A stretch of 57,581 nucleotides of DNA from a virus (Duplodnaviria; Caudoviricetes). Every line of letters begins with the position of its first letter. The first letter of the stretch is position 1. Where the stretch lies: the IMG/VR virus record IMGVR_UViG_3300013094_000056, positions 1 through 57,581 of that record. One strand, given 5' to 3'. A program made the translations under genes and the position numbers. Below, in pieces: positions 35,792 through 54,032 of the stretch. The notes below the pieces were generated by a model. That model worked only from the letters and a program-made list of their open reading frames with translations. It had not been told where the DNA came from and made no database searches.

Positions 35792-35961
35792 GGTTCCAAG
35801 TTCGGAAAAAATGCTCGTTTCAAGACTCCCCCTAGGTTTACTAATCTCTCTCTTTTCTTAACAGGACAGGGGTTAAGAGTAAGAAGAAAGAGAACCTAGA
35901 GGAACCGGGGGTCAAACACCGGGGGAGTCTTGAAACAAGCAAAATTTTCGAACTTGGAACC
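35792..35961. repeat. ~170-bp element with ~41-bp terminal inverted repeats (copy 1)
   Basis: GGTTCCAAGTTCGGAAAAAATGCTCGTTTCAAGACTCCCCC ... GGGGGAGTCTTGAAACAAGCAAAATTTTCGAACTTGGAACC. Confidence 0.9.
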
Positions 35962-36099
35962 ACCTAAGTCATTGTTTTTTGGTAAATGGGCTCCAGCGCA
36001 CCGCCCAAACACCCCTGTCTTAATTCCAAGGCCATTACATCAGTTTCAGAAACTTAGCAGCCAACCGTTTCCCCGGCCAACGACCATCGTCCACCGAAA

Positions 36100-36582
36100 T
36101 TACGAACCTGGCGATTCATCACCAAAAGACAGATTCTGGTTTGGCTTCAGTCCACGAGAAAAGATGAAATTAACTCCAAGAGTCAAAGCTATCGATCTAT
36201 GGCTCGAAATTAAGAACCCATCCCCATCATCAACCACTTTCTCAATGCAGACCGCACCGCTCAAAGAATAGTCGTCAATGTTCAGAAAGACCATGTCAGG
36301 CGTGTTGGAGATCGCCACCAGAAGGCCCACTGCGCAAAGATCATGGCGCATCGCCTTCATCTCTCGCTTCTGCTCTGCCCGAACTTTGTACCTGAGCAAT
36401 GAACCTTCCATCTTGCCGATCTTCAACTCGAGATGGACAACTTGGCCATATTCGCCTGTCGGAACCCAAACATCAGGCAATCCCAGAGTGCTGCCGAACG
36501 CAGGCTCAACCCAGCGAGATTCGCCGTTGGCCGCCAAGCGAACCCAGCTGCGCAGATCATTTTCGCTCTTGAATACATTCAC
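36100..36582 (-). CDS. PD-(D/E)XK nuclease, Holliday-junction-resolvase-like
   Basis: SE..L, GLPDV, LELK motifs; GTG start 36582. Confidence 0.7.
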   Translation of the reverse strand: MNVFKSENDLRSWVRLAANGESRWVEPAFGSTLGLPDVWVPTGEYGQVVHLELKIGKMEGSLLRYKVRAEQKREMKAMRHDLCAVGLLVAISNTPDMVFLNIDDYSLSGAVCIEKVVDDGDGFLISSHRSIALTLGVNFIFSRGLKPNQNLSFGDESPGS

Positions 36583-36729
36583 ATCGCACCTCGACCTTCC
36601 ATGATGGCGATGCAGGCTTTGCACGTCACCTTATCTTTATTGTCAGTCGTTGTTGGCTGCTTTCCCGGCAGACTCGCAGTGCAATAGGCGACCGCCCTGT
36701 GGCCGAACTTGTCCTTTATCCACGCTCGT

Positions 36730-36966
36730 TTATGCACTGTCTTTGACTTTCTCAAATATGAACCCAACATGCTCGCTGTCCGTCTGCCCAAAGAGGCTGA
36801 GCAAGCGCCAGCCGTCTTCAAGCATAGCATCAAGCGCCTGAGGCAGGTGGGTAGGGTTGATCGTCAATCCGCGAGCATAGGCATAGTGTTTGCCCTTTTT
36901 CAGCCGCGCAAAGCGATAGTCAGGAACCTCTTGCAGCTCCGCCAATTTCTCTGCCATCACCACCAC
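36730..36966 (-). CDS. Hypothetical protein
   Basis: 78 aa in the operon. Confidence 0.45.
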   Translation of the reverse strand: MVVMAEKLAELQEVPDYRFARLKKGKHYAYARGLTINPTHLPQALDAMLEDGWRLLSLFGQTDSEHVGFIFEKVKDSA

Positions 36967-37142
36967 CTCATCTTAAAATAGCTGCACGTATCGCTCATCC
37001 CAACACGCGGCCTTATGCTCTTGACCTTGCCAGAGGTGCGATCCATAAAAGGCGTAGGCGGTGCAGCATAGCAGATGATTTCGTCTTGGTCTTTCTTTCC
37101 CCATTCGCAGTGAATGCAGAAATTCCTTTGTTCATCTGCCAT
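36957..37142 (-). CDS. Small Cys-rich putative Zn-binding protein
   Basis: CIHC...C...PP...P.V...DTC..F pattern; GGGAG RBS. Confidence 0.55.
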   Translation of the reverse strand: MADEQRNFCIHCEWGKKDQDEIICYAAPPTPFMDRTSGKVKSIRPRVGMSDTCSYFKMRWW

Positions 37143-37387
37143 CGTCAATCTCCCATCACCGTCGCGACCGCAAAAACCAATGCATATGCGGCCATTGATA
37201 CAACTGCAAATGCGCAAAACAGAACGCCAAGCACCAAGAAAAGTGCATCCAAGATTTTTCTCACTTAGCGATCCTCCAAAGTCAGTCGATCATCAGCGTT
37301 GCGATGCAAAGCACCGTCGACGCCACAAGCGCACTCATGAAAATGGTGTAAAGTGTGATGAAAATCCAATCAGGCAACCTCTTCATT

Positions 37388-52229: not shown

Positions 52230-53189
52230 ATGGCACACGAAATCGTCAATGAAATGATCGCTTACGCTGGTGAAACCCCTTGGCACGGCATTGGCGCCAA
52301 GCTGGACACCGGTTCGACCCCTGCCGAATTCCTCGATGCAGCCAAGCTCAACTGGACCATCGACAAGCATCCGCTTCAGGCTGTTGTCGGTGACACCATC
52401 ATCCCGGTCCCCAACAAGTTCGCCATGCTTCGCTCCAGCGACAACAAGATGTTCGGTGTTTGCTCGGACGCCTGGACGCCTTTCCAGAACGCAGACGCGC
52501 TGGATTTCATGCGCCGCTACTGCGAAGCCGGTGGCGCCACGATGGAAACTGCTGGCGGCCTGCGCGACGGTCGCATCGTTTGGGGTCTGGCTCGCCTCAA
52601 CCACTCGTTTGAGGTTCGTCCCGGTGACAAGGTCAACGGCTACCTGCTCATCACCACCCCGCACGTTGTCGGCATGAGCACCACCGTTCGCACGACCACC
52701 GTTCGCGTCGTCTGCGCCAACACGATGGCGATGGCCAACAGTTCCTCGACCATCGAGTATCGCCAGAACCACATGAGTGCCTTCGATGTCGCCAAGGCCA
52801 AAGAAGCGGTCGAGCAGGCTCACGAAAATCTGCTGCTTGCAGAGATGCGCGCCAAGACGCTCGACAAGCTGAAGCTGAACCTTGAAGACTCGGTCAAGAA
52901 GGTTCTTGTGCCGGCATTCGACGCCGATCTTGCTGCCGACGAAGAATTCATGGCTGCCAATCTTGATGTCGAAGCTCTGCCCAAGCGTTTCCAGCACATC
53001 ATCGATTCGCTTCAGAATGCCCCTGGAGCGATCGAAGGCAACGGCTGGGGCACCCTCAACGCAGTGACTCACTACTGCGACCACGTTGCCGGTCACAATG
53101 CAGGCACCCGCCTTTTCCGCTCTTGGATCGGCGATTATTCGCGTATCAAGCTGGACGTTGAAAAGCGTCTGCTTGAGCTCGCAGCCTGA
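52230..53189 (+). CDS. DUF932-family protein
   Basis: MAHE...YAGETPWHG.G, QN.DA, ETAG.L..G, RVVC.NT, W...NAVT.Y.DH. Confidence 0.85.
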   Translation: MAHEIVNEMIAYAGETPWHGIGAKLDTGSTPAEFLDAAKLNWTIDKHPLQAVVGDTIIPVPNKFAMLRSSDNKMFGVCSDAWTPFQNADALDFMRRYCEAGGATMETAGGLRDGRIVWGLARLNHSFEVRPGDKVNGYLLITTPHVVGMSTTVRTTTVRVVCANTMAMANSSSTIEYRQNHMSAFDVAKAKEAVEQAHENLLLAEMRAKTLDKLKLNLEDSVKKVLVPAFDADLAADEEFMAANLDVEALPKRFQHIIDSLQNAPGAIEGNGWGTLNAVTHYCDHVAGHNAGTRLFRSWIGDYSRIKLDVEKRLLELAA

Positions 53190-53198
53190 CTCGATGTT

Positions 53199-53221
53199 TG
53201 GGGTGGTGAAAGCCACCCCAT
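53199..53221 (+). terminator. Hairpin after DUF932
   Basis: TGGGGTGG-TGAAAG-CCACCCCA; weak U-tract. Confidence 0.45.
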
Positions 53222-53234
53222 CCATGGACTCAGG

Positions 53235-53858
53235 ATGTCCAAACCCAAATACCTGACCAAACCGAAAGGAATGACAATGTCGATTTCAGAAGTAACCCTC
53301 ACCAGCCGTGAAATCATGTTCCTTGCTTCGACCATCTCAGGCAAAGAGGCAAAGCGTGCGGCAGACAAGCCTAGCGCAATCAGCGCATTCACCAAGGCTC
53401 TCGAAAATCGCATCGGTGAATCAAACGCGATGGACTGCCGGTGGGAGATCCTTCTGAGCGAGCATGTCAATTCCGCCCATGCTCTGGCTGGCCAGATCAT
53501 CTCGAAATTCGATGGTGACGAGCCGGAAGAAATTCTGGCATCATTCATCGGAACACCCAACGCAGGCGATTTTCAGGAAACAGTTCCTGTTGCCGCCGAA
53601 ACAACCACTCGTGAAGAGGAAAATGACATGAGCACCAACGAAAATGCCGGTCGTCGCGGTCGCAAAGCAACCGCCGCTGGTCGCAAGCTGAGCGCTGTGG
53701 GCACCGAGAACCCGCGTCGGGCAGGAAGCCACGGTCACCGCAGCCACCAGATCATTCTCGACAATCCCGGCATCACGACTGAGGATTTTCTGGCCCAAGG
53801 TGGTCGGATCAATGACCTGAACTGGGACATTGCCAAGGGTCACGTGAAGGCCGCATAA
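53235..53858 (+). CDS. Hypothetical protein with C-terminal NPRR.GS.GHRS domain
   Basis: Paralogous domain to 48922-49284; start may be 53277. Confidence 0.6.
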   Translation: MSKPKYLTKPKGMTMSISEVTLTSREIMFLASTISGKEAKRAADKPSAISAFTKALENRIGESNAMDCRWEILLSEHVNSAHALAGQIISKFDGDEPEEILASFIGTPNAGDFQETVPVAAETTTREEENDMSTNENAGRRGRKATAAGRKLSAVGTENPRRAGSHGHRSHQIILDNPGITTEDFLAQGGRINDLNWDIAKGHVKAA

Positions 53859-53867
53859 GGCCAAAAT

Positions 53868-54032
53868 AGGTTCCAAGTTCGGAAAAAACGCTTGTTTCAG
53901 GACTCCCCCGGTGTTTACCCTCCCTTTAGGTTCCTTTTTTCTCTTCTTCTACTCCGTTGGGATAAAGTAGAGAGAAGATAAGAAACCTTAGAGAGAGTCT
54001 CAAAACAAGGAAAAATTCCGAACTTGGAACCT
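53868..54032. repeat. ~165-bp element with terminal inverted repeats (copy 2, inverted relative to copy 1)
   Basis: AGGTTCCAAGTTCGGAAAAAACGCTTGTTTCAGGACTCCCCCGGTGTTT ... GAGTCTCAAAACAAGGAAAAATTCCGAACTTGGAACCT. Confidence 0.9.

What the first reader, a model, noticed from the sequence alone, without database searches (positions are those of the whole stretch)
35792..54032. Two homologous ~170-bp palindromic elements, inverted to each other, bracketing the 18-kb replication/early region
Seen: 35792-35961 and 53868-54032 each have ~40-bp terminal inverted arms (consensus GGTTCCAAGTTCG(G)AA-N6-7-CTYGTTT-x-RGACTC). Inside is a second pair, TAGGTT...AACCT(T)AG, around pyrimidine and purine tracts. 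Copy 2 aligns along its length with the reverse complement of copy 1, including CCCCCGGTGTTT. Each reads the same way relative to its downstream gene: NusG and the late operon for copy 1, the helicase for copy 2. Inference: they could be twin replication origins or cruciforms, binding platforms for a phage regulator, a conserved structured leader RNA, or recombination sites that invert the intervening segment. No transposase or recombinase is visible.
Basis: partly seen in the sequence, partly recalled or inferred. Interest (0 to 1): 0.75.

Follow-up and report, generated by a model that had tools for sequence, protein, structure and literature searches.

The report
Conserved paired palindromes at phage module borders
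Two roughly 165-base hairpin-forming DNA elements in this freshwater phage are real, are kept at the same gene borders in its relatives, and most likely mark a replication origin or a late-gene control site of a kind not yet described.

Summary
35792-35961 and 53869-54031 are imperfect palindromes that share invariant 12-bp ends (GGTTCCAAGTTC / GAACTTGGAACC) and fold far better than shuffles as RNA or DNA. The window is a complete 57.6-kb myovirus record.

The same element turned up 27 times (unique sequences) in related uncultured phages, always at one of two borders. Site A lies after the primase-helicase and resolvase-like genes and before a NusG paralog, terS and terL. Site B lies before the SNF2 helicase. 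The ends and an inner GGTTC never vary, one inner helix covaries, and 13 of 25 copies carry a box resembling the IHF consensus 3-4 nt in front.

The element matches no Rfam family and no paper found. It is not a MITE, and no evidence for inversion was found.

Orientation relative to the genes is usual (23 of 27) but not obligatory. Two sister lineages keep a flipped copy intact, and G:U and A:C mismatches are equally common. I therefore favour a DNA-level role, an origin or cis-replication pair like P4 ori/crr (0.35), over a leader for the NusG paralog (0.30). Neither is shown.

The hundreds of bacterial matches to the end motif are GTTCCAA heptamer repeat arrays. This scan has noted that separate class before on other DNA.

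The parts
35792..35961 (-). Element copy A (170 bp). Its own orientation, set by asymmetric motifs, is the minus strand, the same sense as the flanking genes.
53869..54031 (+). Element copy B (163 bp; 53868 and 54032 add a 13th A:T pair). Its orientation is the plus strand, the same sense as the flanking genes.
35792..35803 (.). Invariant 12-bp end of copy A, GGTTCCAAGTTC (two GTTCC pentamers 7 nt apart). Its partner is 35950-35961.
   Evidence: these columns are identical in 25 of 25 aligned elements
53869..53880 (.). Invariant 12-bp end of copy B. Its partner is 54020-54031.
53928..53934 (+). Inner AGGTTCC. G, T and C of it are invariant, while the opposite arm varies.
   Evidence: invariant columns G61, T63, C65; G62 in at least 90%
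53954..53967 (+). Apical loop CCGTTGGGATAAAG, flanked by the pyrimidine tract (5') and the purine tract (3'). The same loop word recurs in many relatives and resembles part of the early-cassette leaders.
35965..35977 (-). Box AAACAATGACTTA, 3 nt in front of copy A. It has one mismatch to WATCAANNNNTTR, the IHF consensus as I recall it.
   Evidence: 13 of 25 elements have the box with at most 1 mismatch at offset 3-4; 0 of 25 in each of three control placements
35241..35789 (-). NusG paralog (NGN + KOW), the first gene after copy A. Its start codon lies 2 nt from the element.
   Evidence: phrog_6386 'transcription antiterminator', 2e-13; UpxY family 3.2e-9, RfaH 1.3e-6, both below the curated cut-offs
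36100..36624 (-). p174, the last gene before copy A. It may be a PD-(D/E)xK nuclease of the Holliday-junction-resolvase kind; this is a lead only.
   Evidence: the conserved frame is the minus strand; GLPD...ELK motif, my reading; Atlas cluster with RecU on 34% of members, score 0.94; no hit in Pfam, NCBIfam or PDB sequences
37388..39589 (-). Primase-helicase (DUF5906; weak match to the P4-family primase C-terminal model)
53235..53858 (+). p207, the last gene before copy B. Its C-terminal 'NPRR' domain is shared with p120 (48922-49284).
   Evidence: (predicted-structure likeness to the PriA 3' DNA-binding domain, TM 0.65-0.67 over about 60 aa; a lead only)
54055..55689 (+). SNF2-family helicase, the first gene after copy B

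Best explanation
The two elements belong to an undescribed family of 110-170-bp, AT-rich, imperfect palindromes carried by a clade of uncultured myoviruses that encode DnaE, a P4-type primase-helicase and an SNF2 helicase. They sit at the edges of the early and replication block.

I think they most likely work as DNA, not as a strand-specific RNA. On this reading they are cruciform-capable platforms for a sequence-specific protein. The features are two GTTCC pentamers at each end in inverted order, a third GTTCC inside, A/T runs next to the ends, an AT-rich pyrimidine/purine centre, and often an IHF-consensus-like box 3-4 nt outside.

This is the layout of an iteron-type replication origin. 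The pair would act like P4 ori plus crr, or SPP1 oriL plus oriR. Those precedents are recalled from memory, not read here. The phage replication proteins encoded next to the elements would bind the ends and open the centre.

Shown: the anatomy, the conservation, the covariation and the tolerance of inversion. Inferred: protein binding, the identity of the binder, and any role in replication.
For: (1) Fixed positions. All 27 unique elements found by a profile built from 7 copies lie in relatives. Fifteen lie after the primase/p174 genes and 12 lie before SNF2.

(2) The position next to the primase holds in distant relatives. In G008 the element starts 8 nt after the primase stop codon (primase 43% identical). 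In G006 it also follows the primase, but with different arm sequences.

(3) The 12-bp ends are identical in 25 of 25 aligned elements, and an inner GGTTC is invariant on one arm only. This looks like sequence-specific recognition.

(4) Inversion is tolerated. G002 and G005 carry site B flipped together with its flanking box. They are sister lineages (SNF2 65% identical, support 1.0), yet both keep the invariant motifs. G004 has its two copies as direct repeats (alignment score 91 vs 14).

(5) There is no wobble asymmetry. On a fixed structure G:U-type cells number 124 and A:C-type cells 118. Minimum free energy favours the element's own strand in only 17 of 27 (Wilcoxon p 0.13).

(6) The IHF-consensus-like box sits at offset 3-4 in 13 of 25 elements and in 0 of 25 at each of three control placements.

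(7) The elements are AT-rich. Mean GC is 0.43 for the element and 0.38 for its central 70 nt, against 0.555 for the flanks.

(8) Both strands fold as DNA hairpins, z -8.9 and -6.2.

(9) The neighbouring genes are replication or recombination proteins: primase-helicase, a resolvase-like p174 (lead) and the SNF2 helicase.
Against: (1) Orientation is the same sense as the flanking genes in 23 of 27 elements, and in 14 of 15 at site A.

(2) The 3' end usually lies 2-40 nt from the next gene's ribosome site or start codon. That fits an mRNA leader.

(3) One arm-by-arm count did show more G:U-type than A:C-type mismatches (107 vs 73, binomial p 0.014 on related sequences).

(4) The helix covaries. 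Binding sites on duplex DNA do not need that, although a hairpin or cruciform would.

(5) The primase C-terminal region does not track the arm sequence. G008 has the same arms with 25% identity there, while G006 has other arms with 20%.

(6) GC skew switches near both elements in this genome but not in G002 or G004.

(7) The complete genome G008 has one element only, so a pair is not required.

(8) No binding or replication data exist. The IHF consensus and the P4, SPP1 and SaPI precedents are recalled, not read here.
Confidence: 0.35

Rival explanations
1. The element is a transcription-level leader for the phage NusG paralog. It would be the cis site, as a nascent RNA hairpin and/or as the 12-nt word on the non-template strand, where RNA polymerase pauses or terminates. 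There it would be modified by the RfaH/UpxY-like protein encoded just downstream, licensing the 35-kb late operon (site A) and the SNF2 operon (site B).
For: - A NusG-paralog ORF begins within 70 nt of 12 of the 15 site-A elements. Two of the others run off their contigs.
- In G008 the order is primase, element, p174, NusG paralog, terS, terL.
- The protein matches phrog_6386 'transcription antiterminator' (2e-13), UpxY (3.2e-9) and RfaH (1.3e-6).
- Specialised NusG paralogs need a leader signal (recalled knowledge; the scan note e1-6239503 says the same).
- 23 of 27 elements are in the sense orientation.
- The palindromic ends read the same on the non-template strand in either orientation.
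- The helix covaries.
- The two sites lie in the two arms that diverge from about 48.2 kb, as the lambda nutL/nutR sites do (recalled).
Against: - The flipped site-B copies in G002 and G005 keep strand-specific motifs that would then be read as their complement.
- G:U and A:C mismatches are balanced.
- One site-A element (L174) has no NusG-paralog hit downstream although sequence is available.
- No sigma-70-type promoter and no canonical terminator lies at site A.
- A run of T follows only 6 of 27 elements.
- No RNA data exist.
Confidence: 0.3
2. The element is a structure-only RNA element: an RNase III-type processing site, mRNA-stabilising hairpin or orientation-independent transcription barrier between modules, like the T7 RNase III sites or bacterial REP hairpins (both recalled).
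For: Both strands give long hairpins, so function would survive a flip. The position lies between co-directional genes at operon borders. The helix covaries.
Against: A structure-only role does not explain the invariant 12-bp ends, the one-arm GGTTC, the conserved bulge CCCGGTGTTT, the conserved loop word or the flanking box. G:U is not favoured over A:C. A T run follows only 6 of 27.
Confidence: 0.1
3. The element is a selfish or passive repeat: a MITE-like insertion, a derivative of GTTCCAA simple-sequence arrays, or merely a conserved 'linker' where related phages recombine. It would have no role of its own.
For: - The element has terminal inverted repeats and no coding capacity.
- The end word equals two units of the GTTCCAA heptamer arrays that abound in some bacterial genomes: 591, 107, 197, 45 and 8 copies of the 12-mer in five genomes, against 0-2 for the reversed control.
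- In two close pairs, sequence identity changes sharply within about 100 nt of the element.
- The gene next to site B varies: p207, DUF932, or one gene further off in G004.
Against: - There are only one or two copies per phage genome, and always at the same borders.
- The ends stay invariant across lineages whose proteins are 40-60% identical.
- There is no target-site duplication: the flanking A and T simply extend the stem.
- The flanking box moves with the element, so the inverted repeats are not its limits.
- The profile matched no bacterial array.
Confidence: 0.1
4. The elements are recombination sites that invert the 18-kb segment between them.
For: The copies are inverted in this genome and in G006.
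Against: The copies are direct repeats in G002 and G004, where recombination would delete the replication genes. No joint at the elements appears in contigs of 4 runs, and one contig spans the whole stretch in the given order. No recombinase matched among the 39 ORFs scanned. The copies are only about 74% identical inside the ends.
Confidence: 0.03

Closest known systems
Satellite phage P4 ori and crr, bound by the alpha primase-helicase (recalled from memory, not read here)
   Same: Two cis sites share short repeated words and flank the replication genes of a replicon that encodes a P4-family primase-helicase. Here the match to the P4-family model is weak (TIGR01613, E 0.002).
   Different: P4 uses direct octamer repeats, not a 165-bp palindrome. 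No binding is shown here. The primase C-terminus does not covary with the arms. One complete relative has a single site.
Palindromic or iteron origins such as SPP1 oriL/oriR, SaPI ori, HSV oriS and the SV40 core origin (recalled)
   Same: Short initiator words in inverted order lie around an AT-rich centre, next to a helicase gene, and in some cases in two copies per genome.
   Different: Here the words lie about 140 bp apart at the tips of a long hairpin-forming palindrome with conserved asymmetric motifs. Membership in any of these families cannot be tested by sequence.
Leader signals of specialised NusG paralogs (RfaH ops, UpxY 5' UTRs, LoaP leader hairpin) and the lambda nut / HK022 put sites (recalled)
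   Same: The cis element lies directly ahead of a very long operon headed by the paralog's own gene, as in Bacteroides upxY loci. A second site lies in the opposite transcription arm. The invariant word is 12 nt, as long as ops.
   Different: There is no sequence likeness to ops. The only ops-consensus match in the window is at 27907 on the plus strand, far from the elements and antisense to the local genes. The element is far larger than the known signals. Flipped copies persist.
REP/BIME elements, including the IHF-binding RIP/RIB class of E. coli (recalled), and the heptamer simple-sequence arrays of soil bacteria noted earlier in this scan
   Same: These are imperfect palindromes between genes, some with an IHF site. 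The end word equals the GTTCCAA array unit.
   Different: Those occur in tens to hundreds of variable copies per bacterial genome. The phage element has one or two copies at fixed borders and a complex conserved interior.
Rfam families
   Same: The element is a long hairpin.
   Different: No family reaches its gathering score. The best weak matches are microRNA-precursor models at 20.6 bits against a threshold of 90.

Membership tests
Any Rfam RNA family | Score at or above the family's gathering threshold | tested here: not met
   One search finds only tRNA-Thr in the window. In some searches the best match is E 0.058 at 20.6 bits against a threshold of 90.
MITE (e.g. IS630/Tc1-type) | Terminal inverted repeats | tested here: met
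MITE (e.g. IS630/Tc1-type) | Target-site duplication at the ends of the repeats | tested here: not met
   by my reading of the listed flanks, most of the 25 elements have A on the 5' side and T on the 3' side. These extend the stem; there is no direct duplication.
MITE (e.g. IS630/Tc1-type) | Many copies at varied sites, with presence/absence between close relatives | tested here: not met
   One or two copies per genome, at two fixed borders
Iteron-type replication origin | Repeated short words for an initiator | tested here: met
   GTTCC/GGAAC occurs 2-7 times per element, with invariant pairs at both ends. The window average is 2.1 per kb.
Iteron-type replication origin | AT-rich region that can open | tested here: met
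   GC 0.38 in the central 70 nt against 0.555 in the flanks (means of 27)
Iteron-type replication origin | Binding by the replicon's initiator, and autonomous replication | not testable with these tools
   Needs EMSA or footprinting and a plasmid replication assay
Iteron-type replication origin | Strand-composition switch at the site | tested here: inconclusive
   There is a switch near both sites in G000 but not in G002 or G004. It is confounded by gene content.
Intrinsic terminator | GC-rich stem followed by a U tract | tested here: not met
   No terminator-like site at site A. A T run follows 6 of 27 elements.
NusG-paralog leader signal (ops-like) | Location in the leader of the regulated operon, downstream of its promoter | tested here: inconclusive
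   The element lies directly ahead of the paralog gene in 12 of 15. No promoter was identified.
NusG-paralog leader signal (ops-like) | Fixed orientation relative to transcription | tested here: not met
   4 of 27 are antisense, two of them strongly scored and long kept. The 12-bp ends are orientation-neutral.
Invertible segment (Hin/Gin type) | Inverted sites plus a recombinase, with both isomers present | tested here: not met
   Direct repeats in G002 and G004. No joints at the elements. No recombinase among the 39 ORFs scanned.
IHF-binding site | Match to WATCAANNNNTTR (consensus recalled from memory) | tested here: met
   9 of 25 perfect and 5 more with one mismatch; 13 of these lie at offset 3-4. 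Binding itself and the host's possession of IHF are untested.

The most novel reading that the evidence does not exclude
The palindrome is a new kind of loading site for a phage-encoded specialised NusG paralog. The 12-nt word is presented in both orientations at the foot of a large hairpin, which would pause RNA polymerase at the border of the replication block and switch on the 35-kb late operon. The same DNA could double as the replication origin, tying late transcription to replication.
Probability: 0.2. Interest if true: 0.75.

Novelty: new variant of a known kind. Interest (0 to 1): 0.55.

Why it matters
Uncultured freshwater, soil and brine phages of this clade have no mapped origin and no known late-gene switch. 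This conserved cis element is easy to recognise. It sits exactly between the replication block and the late operon, next to a primase-helicase on one side and a NusG paralog on the other.

That gives a concrete handle for both questions. If it is the origin, it supplies a minimal replicon for a phage group with no genetic tools. If it is the NusG-paralog signal, it would be the first such site defined for a phage-encoded paralog known to me.

The invariant ends also make a simple search key for finding more members of the clade in metagenomes.

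Tried and rejected
Inversion isomers. I laid contigs of 4 DNA runs on 35200-55100. No joint appeared at either element. One contig of a run that may be the source of this DNA spans the whole stretch. In one run contigs end inside both elements, which palindromes cause in such assemblies, so it shows nothing.

RNA evidence. No RNA holder was listed.

GC skew as an origin mark. It is suggestive in this genome but absent in relatives, so I dropped it.

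Consensus folding. RNAalifold on the plain MAFFT alignment returned only the invariant end stem. I then projected the fold of copy A onto the alignment. That structure comes from one of the sequences, which favours it.

Arm co-evolution. Comparing self with cross complementarity showed no clear excess, because the pyrimidine and purine tracts pair promiscuously.

Within-genome likeness. The two copies of a genome are only slightly more alike than the median between genomes: 0.65-0.77 against 0.51-0.64, and about equal to the best between-genome pair. This is no strong concerted evolution.

Primase C-terminus tracking the arm sequence: not seen.

Promoter and terminator scans: nothing at site A, and one chance-level promoter-like hit inside copy B. 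I could not read the flanking box as a sigma-70 promoter.

Packaging site. Site A is near terS, but site B is not. Records with terminal repeats (G004, G008) have the elements well inside, although such repeats may only reflect circular assembly.

Gene context of the bacterial arrays. My crude gene calls gave tandem 52, convergent 21, divergent 17, inside a called ORF 45 and at a locus edge 34. There is no clear bias.

Literature. Search listings for the heptamer and 12-mer words returned only primers and unrelated repeats. A search on phage NusG and antitermination returned nothing on such an element. I saw titles and abstract starts only and read no paper. All precedents named (P4, SPP1, SaPI, HSV, SV40, RfaH, UpxY, LoaP, lambda, HK022, T7, REP/RIP) are recalled.

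Supplements were not consulted.

Full report
THE OBSERVATION

The window is one complete virus record of 57,581 bp (CheckV 100%). The two elements are at 35792-35961 and 53869-54031.

Each has long inverted arms: 48 nt at 83% complementarity and 38 nt at 76%. The 13-mer GGTTCCAAGTTCG occurs exactly four times in the window, and these are the four arms.

Every strand folds into one long irregular hairpin:
- As RNA: -68.5 to -87.0 kcal/mol, z -6.6 to -9.7, with 0 of 200 shuffles as good.
- As DNA (plus strands): -47.2 and -35.0 kcal/mol, z -8.9 and -6.2.

Copy B aligns better with the reverse complement of copy A than with copy A itself (80 vs 62).

GENE CONTEXT

Scans against phage protein families identify a myovirus. 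Sheath, baseplate, portal, terminase and collagen-like fibres are present.

Genes from 1 to about 48.1 kb lie on the minus strand. Genes from about 48.35 kb onward lie on the plus strand.

Going left from the divergence point come nucleotide-metabolism genes, DnaE with its exonuclease subunit, a primase-helicase and a 174-aa protein (p174). Then come copy A, a NusG paralog, terS, terL and the structural genes.

Going right come small early cassettes, a DUF932 protein and a 207-aa protein (p207). Then come copy B, an SNF2 helicase and two more genes.

Both copies thus lie between co-directional genes, at the outer edges of the early and replication block.

RELATIVES

Seven viral contigs encode a related SNF2 helicase (39-59% identity). 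Four of the six that I read upstream of the gene show the same element immediately upstream.

Whole-record searches found:
- two copies in G002, 16 kb apart;
- two copies in G004, 11 kb apart, of 113 bp each with AGTTCCAAGTTC ends;
- one copy in each of three fragmentary records.

Synteny shows the G002 and G004 copies occupy the same two borders as here.

A pattern of the two 11-mers with a 120-150-nt gap then hit 12 viral, 106 metagenome and 83 genome stretches. Only 35 of the 201 loci examined encode relatives of this phage's proteins.

A profile built from 7 oriented copies matched 27 unique elements, all in such relatives and none in the bacterial loci.

THE BACTERIAL MATCHES ARE A SEPARATE CLASS

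The remaining matches are inverted arrays of GTTCCAA-type heptamers between bacterial genes. The 12-mer GTTCCAAGTTCC occurs in five genomes as follows:

| Genome | Copies of the 12-mer |
|---|---|
| Pyrinomonadaceae assembly | 591 |
| Chloroflexi assembly | 107 |
| Bacteroidetes assembly | 197 |
| Acidobacteriota assembly | 45 |
| Luteolibacter chromosome | 8 |

The reversed control pattern gave 0-2 copies.

Earlier notes of this scan describe the same class on other DNA as hypervariable simple-sequence arrays without a shown function (e1-4776165, e1-2202408, e1-3340547, e1-4928611, e1-4579466).

I treat them as a separate thing that shares a word with the phage element. Whether that sharing means anything is open.

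ANATOMY OF THE FAMILY

In a 25-sequence alignment the 12-bp ends are identical in all sequences. So are G, T and C of an inner AGGTTCC on the 5' arm, while the facing arm varies.

Read on the element's own strand, the order is:
1. the end word;
2. an A/T run;
3. a helix (GCTTGTTTC-AGGACTCC with its partner);
4. a conserved unpaired CCCGGTGTTT;
5. the inner AGGTTCC;
6. a pyrimidine tract;
7. a loop often reading CGTTGRGATAAAG;
8. a purine tract;
9. the return arm ending GCGAAAAAATGGAACTTGGAACC.

These asymmetric features give the element an orientation of its own.

The fold of copy A, projected on the alignment, gives the following:
- 67% of cells are paired, against at most 52% when the partners are slid.
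- The covariation score is 0.169, against 0.132 in shuffles (0 of 500 as high) and 0.08-0.11 when slid.
- 16 of 21 pairs of the second helix change on both sides. One pair, for example, is AU in 9 sequences, GC in 7 and CG in 3.

That structure derives from one of the aligned sequences, which favours it.

The elements are AT-rich. GC is 0.43 for the element and 0.38 for its centre, against 0.555 for the flanks.

THE FLANKING BOX

In 13 of 25 elements a box matching WATCAANNNNTTR with at most one mismatch ends 3-4 nt before the element. One more perfect match lies 24 nt away.

None of 25 has such a match in the 3' flank or on the reverse complement of either flank.

This is the IHF consensus as I recall it. 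The host is unknown, so IHF itself is a guess.

A perfect match to the consensus also lies a little way upstream of the element in G008, inside the primase gene (my reading of the sequence printed).

WHAT LIES NEXT TO EACH SITE

Site A. Fifteen elements lie after the primase or p174. Twelve are followed within 70 nt by a NusG-paralog ORF. Two run off their contigs. One (L174) has no such hit.

The paralog matches phrog_6386 (2e-13), UpxY (3.2e-9) and RfaH (1.3e-6). The last two are below the curated cut-offs.

Site B. Twelve elements lie before SNF2, within 17-140 nt of the matched part of the gene in 11 of them. In G004 the element is 1.8 kb further up.

Distant relatives differ in two ways:
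- In the complete 70-kb relative G008 the order is primase, element (8 nt after the stop codon), a p174-like gene, NusG paralog, terS, terL. There is no palindrome before SNF2.
- In G006 a pair of palindromes with different arms (...TTTCGTTTTTCG...) and a purine-rich centre occupies the corresponding places, one after the primase and one before SNF2.

The constant feature is therefore a palindrome between the primase and the late operon. The second site is common but not universal, and the arm sequence can turn over.

RNA OR DNA?

Orientation is the same sense as the flanking genes in 23 of 27 elements: 14 of 15 at site A and 9 of 12 at site B. Two of the four antisense calls are weak.

G002 and G005 carry site B flipped, together with its flanking box. 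The profile score differences are large, 108 and 65 bits.

Their SNF2 proteins are sisters at 65% identity (support 1.0). One old flip has therefore been kept, with the invariant motifs intact in both descendants. G004's two copies are direct repeats (91 vs 14).

Three tests for wobble asymmetry disagree only mildly:

| Test | Result |
|---|---|
| Minimum free energy | favours the element's strand in 17 of 27 (p 0.13) |
| Arm-by-arm alignment | 107 G:U-type vs 73 A:C-type mismatches |
| Fixed-structure count | 124 vs 118 |

A functional RNA hairpin should favour G:U clearly. I take this as weak evidence against a strand-specific RNA.

No RNA run holds the phage, so expression could not be examined.

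WEIGHING THE READINGS

The anatomy and the tolerance of inversion fit a DNA site bound by a sequence-specific protein. An iteron-type origin or cis-replication pair is the best-known thing with this layout beside a primase-helicase gene.

Against this, the element hugs the start of the NusG-paralog gene, is usually in the sense orientation, and covaries like a hairpin. The primase C-terminal region also does not track the arm sequence.

The leader reading is nearly as good. Specialised NusG paralogs need a cis signal ahead of long operons, and the palindromic ends would read alike in either orientation.

I put the DNA-level origin-like reading at 0.35 and the NusG-leader reading at 0.30.

The less likely readings:
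- a structure-only RNA role, 0.10;
- a selfish or passive repeat, 0.10;
- inversion sites, 0.03.

For inversion: the copies are direct repeats in two relatives, there are no joints in contigs of four runs, and no recombinase matched among the 39 ORFs scanned.

COMPARISON WITH WHAT IS KNOWN

No Rfam family matches. Three literature searches, read as listings only, found nothing on the motif or on such an element.

The element works like known palindromic origins or like NusG-paralog leaders, but it cannot be filed in any named family.

The MITE test fails on target duplication, copy number and site variability. The terminator test fails on the U tract.

I rate it a new variant of a known kind. 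It is of moderate interest because it gives a testable handle on replication and late control in a phage group with no experimental system.

Noticed in passing
L152-L231 and L046-L151 (bacterial and metagenome loci); genomes G013-G017: Inverted arrays of GTTCCAA-type heptamers fill many intergenic spacers in assemblies from several phyla. The 12-mer GTTCCAAGTTCC occurs 591, 107, 197, 45 and 8 times in five genomes, against 0-2 for the reversed control. In one assembly, different non-palindromic cores of about 80 nt recur between such arrays. Earlier scan notes describe the same class.
   Followed up: partly
window 48215-48375, 49415-49575, 49811-49971, 52099-52259: Four early-cassette leaders share a long motif: AAATTCAYCAAYTGA, then a pyrimidine tract, then TTGGCSGAWAGAGAATTCGGGCAGC. 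Its pyrimidine tract plus GTTTGGSCGATARAG resembles the apex of the palindromes. Its ATCAATTGAT resembles the box in front of them.
   Followed up: partly
window 48157-48588: The minus-strand ORF listed here looks spurious. A plus-strand gene with a GGAG ribosome site starts at ATG 48346 behind an early leader, which puts the divergence point at about 48.15-48.35 kb.
   Followed up: no
window 36100-36624 (-): p174 has a GLPD...ELK motif typical of PD-(D/E)xK nucleases (my reading). Its nearest named Atlas cluster is a Holliday-junction-resolvase/RecU-like one (score 0.94, RecU on 34% of members). A cruciform-cutting enzyme encoded beside a 170-bp palindrome is worth a test.
   Followed up: partly
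window 53235-53858 (+) and 48922-49284 (+): p207 and p120 share a C-terminal 'NPRR' domain of about 60 aa with no family match. The Atlas model of it resembles the PriA 3' DNA-binding domain (TM 0.65-0.67 over about 60 aa). This is a lead only.
   Followed up: partly
L116 vs L095; L079 vs L043 and L036: Between close relatives, identity jumps from about 0.6 to above 0.9 within roughly 100 nt of the element. The element itself is 0.91-0.98 identical, as high as or higher than the coding flanks. The elements may sit at mosaic recombination borders.
   Followed up: partly
L245/L246 (G006) 6024-6138 and 21846-21960; L235 (G007) 1-95: More distant relatives carry an analogous pair of palindromes with different arms (TTTCGTTTTTCG / CGAAAAACGAAA) and a purine-rich, unpaired centre on the sense strand. 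A lone half-site lies between DnaE and the primase at 19482.
   Followed up: partly
window 35213-35239 (-): A GC-rich hairpin follows the NusG-paralog stop codon, but no U tract follows it. The 146-nt spacer folds only slightly better than shuffles (z -1.6).
   Followed up: partly
window 27907 (+): The single match to the RfaH ops consensus as I recall it (GGCGGTAGNNTG) lies on the strand opposite the late genes. About 0.1 matches are expected by chance.
   Followed up: no
window 35902-35924 and 53830-53902: In one public run the assembled contigs end inside both elements. This is probably an assembly effect of the palindromes.
   Followed up: no
window 36000-38000; G002 17-19 kb; G004 11-12 kb: A strong local negative GC skew (about -100 per kb) covers p174 and the start of the primase gene in all three genomes. 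It is a gene-specific composition, not a skew switch.
   Followed up: no
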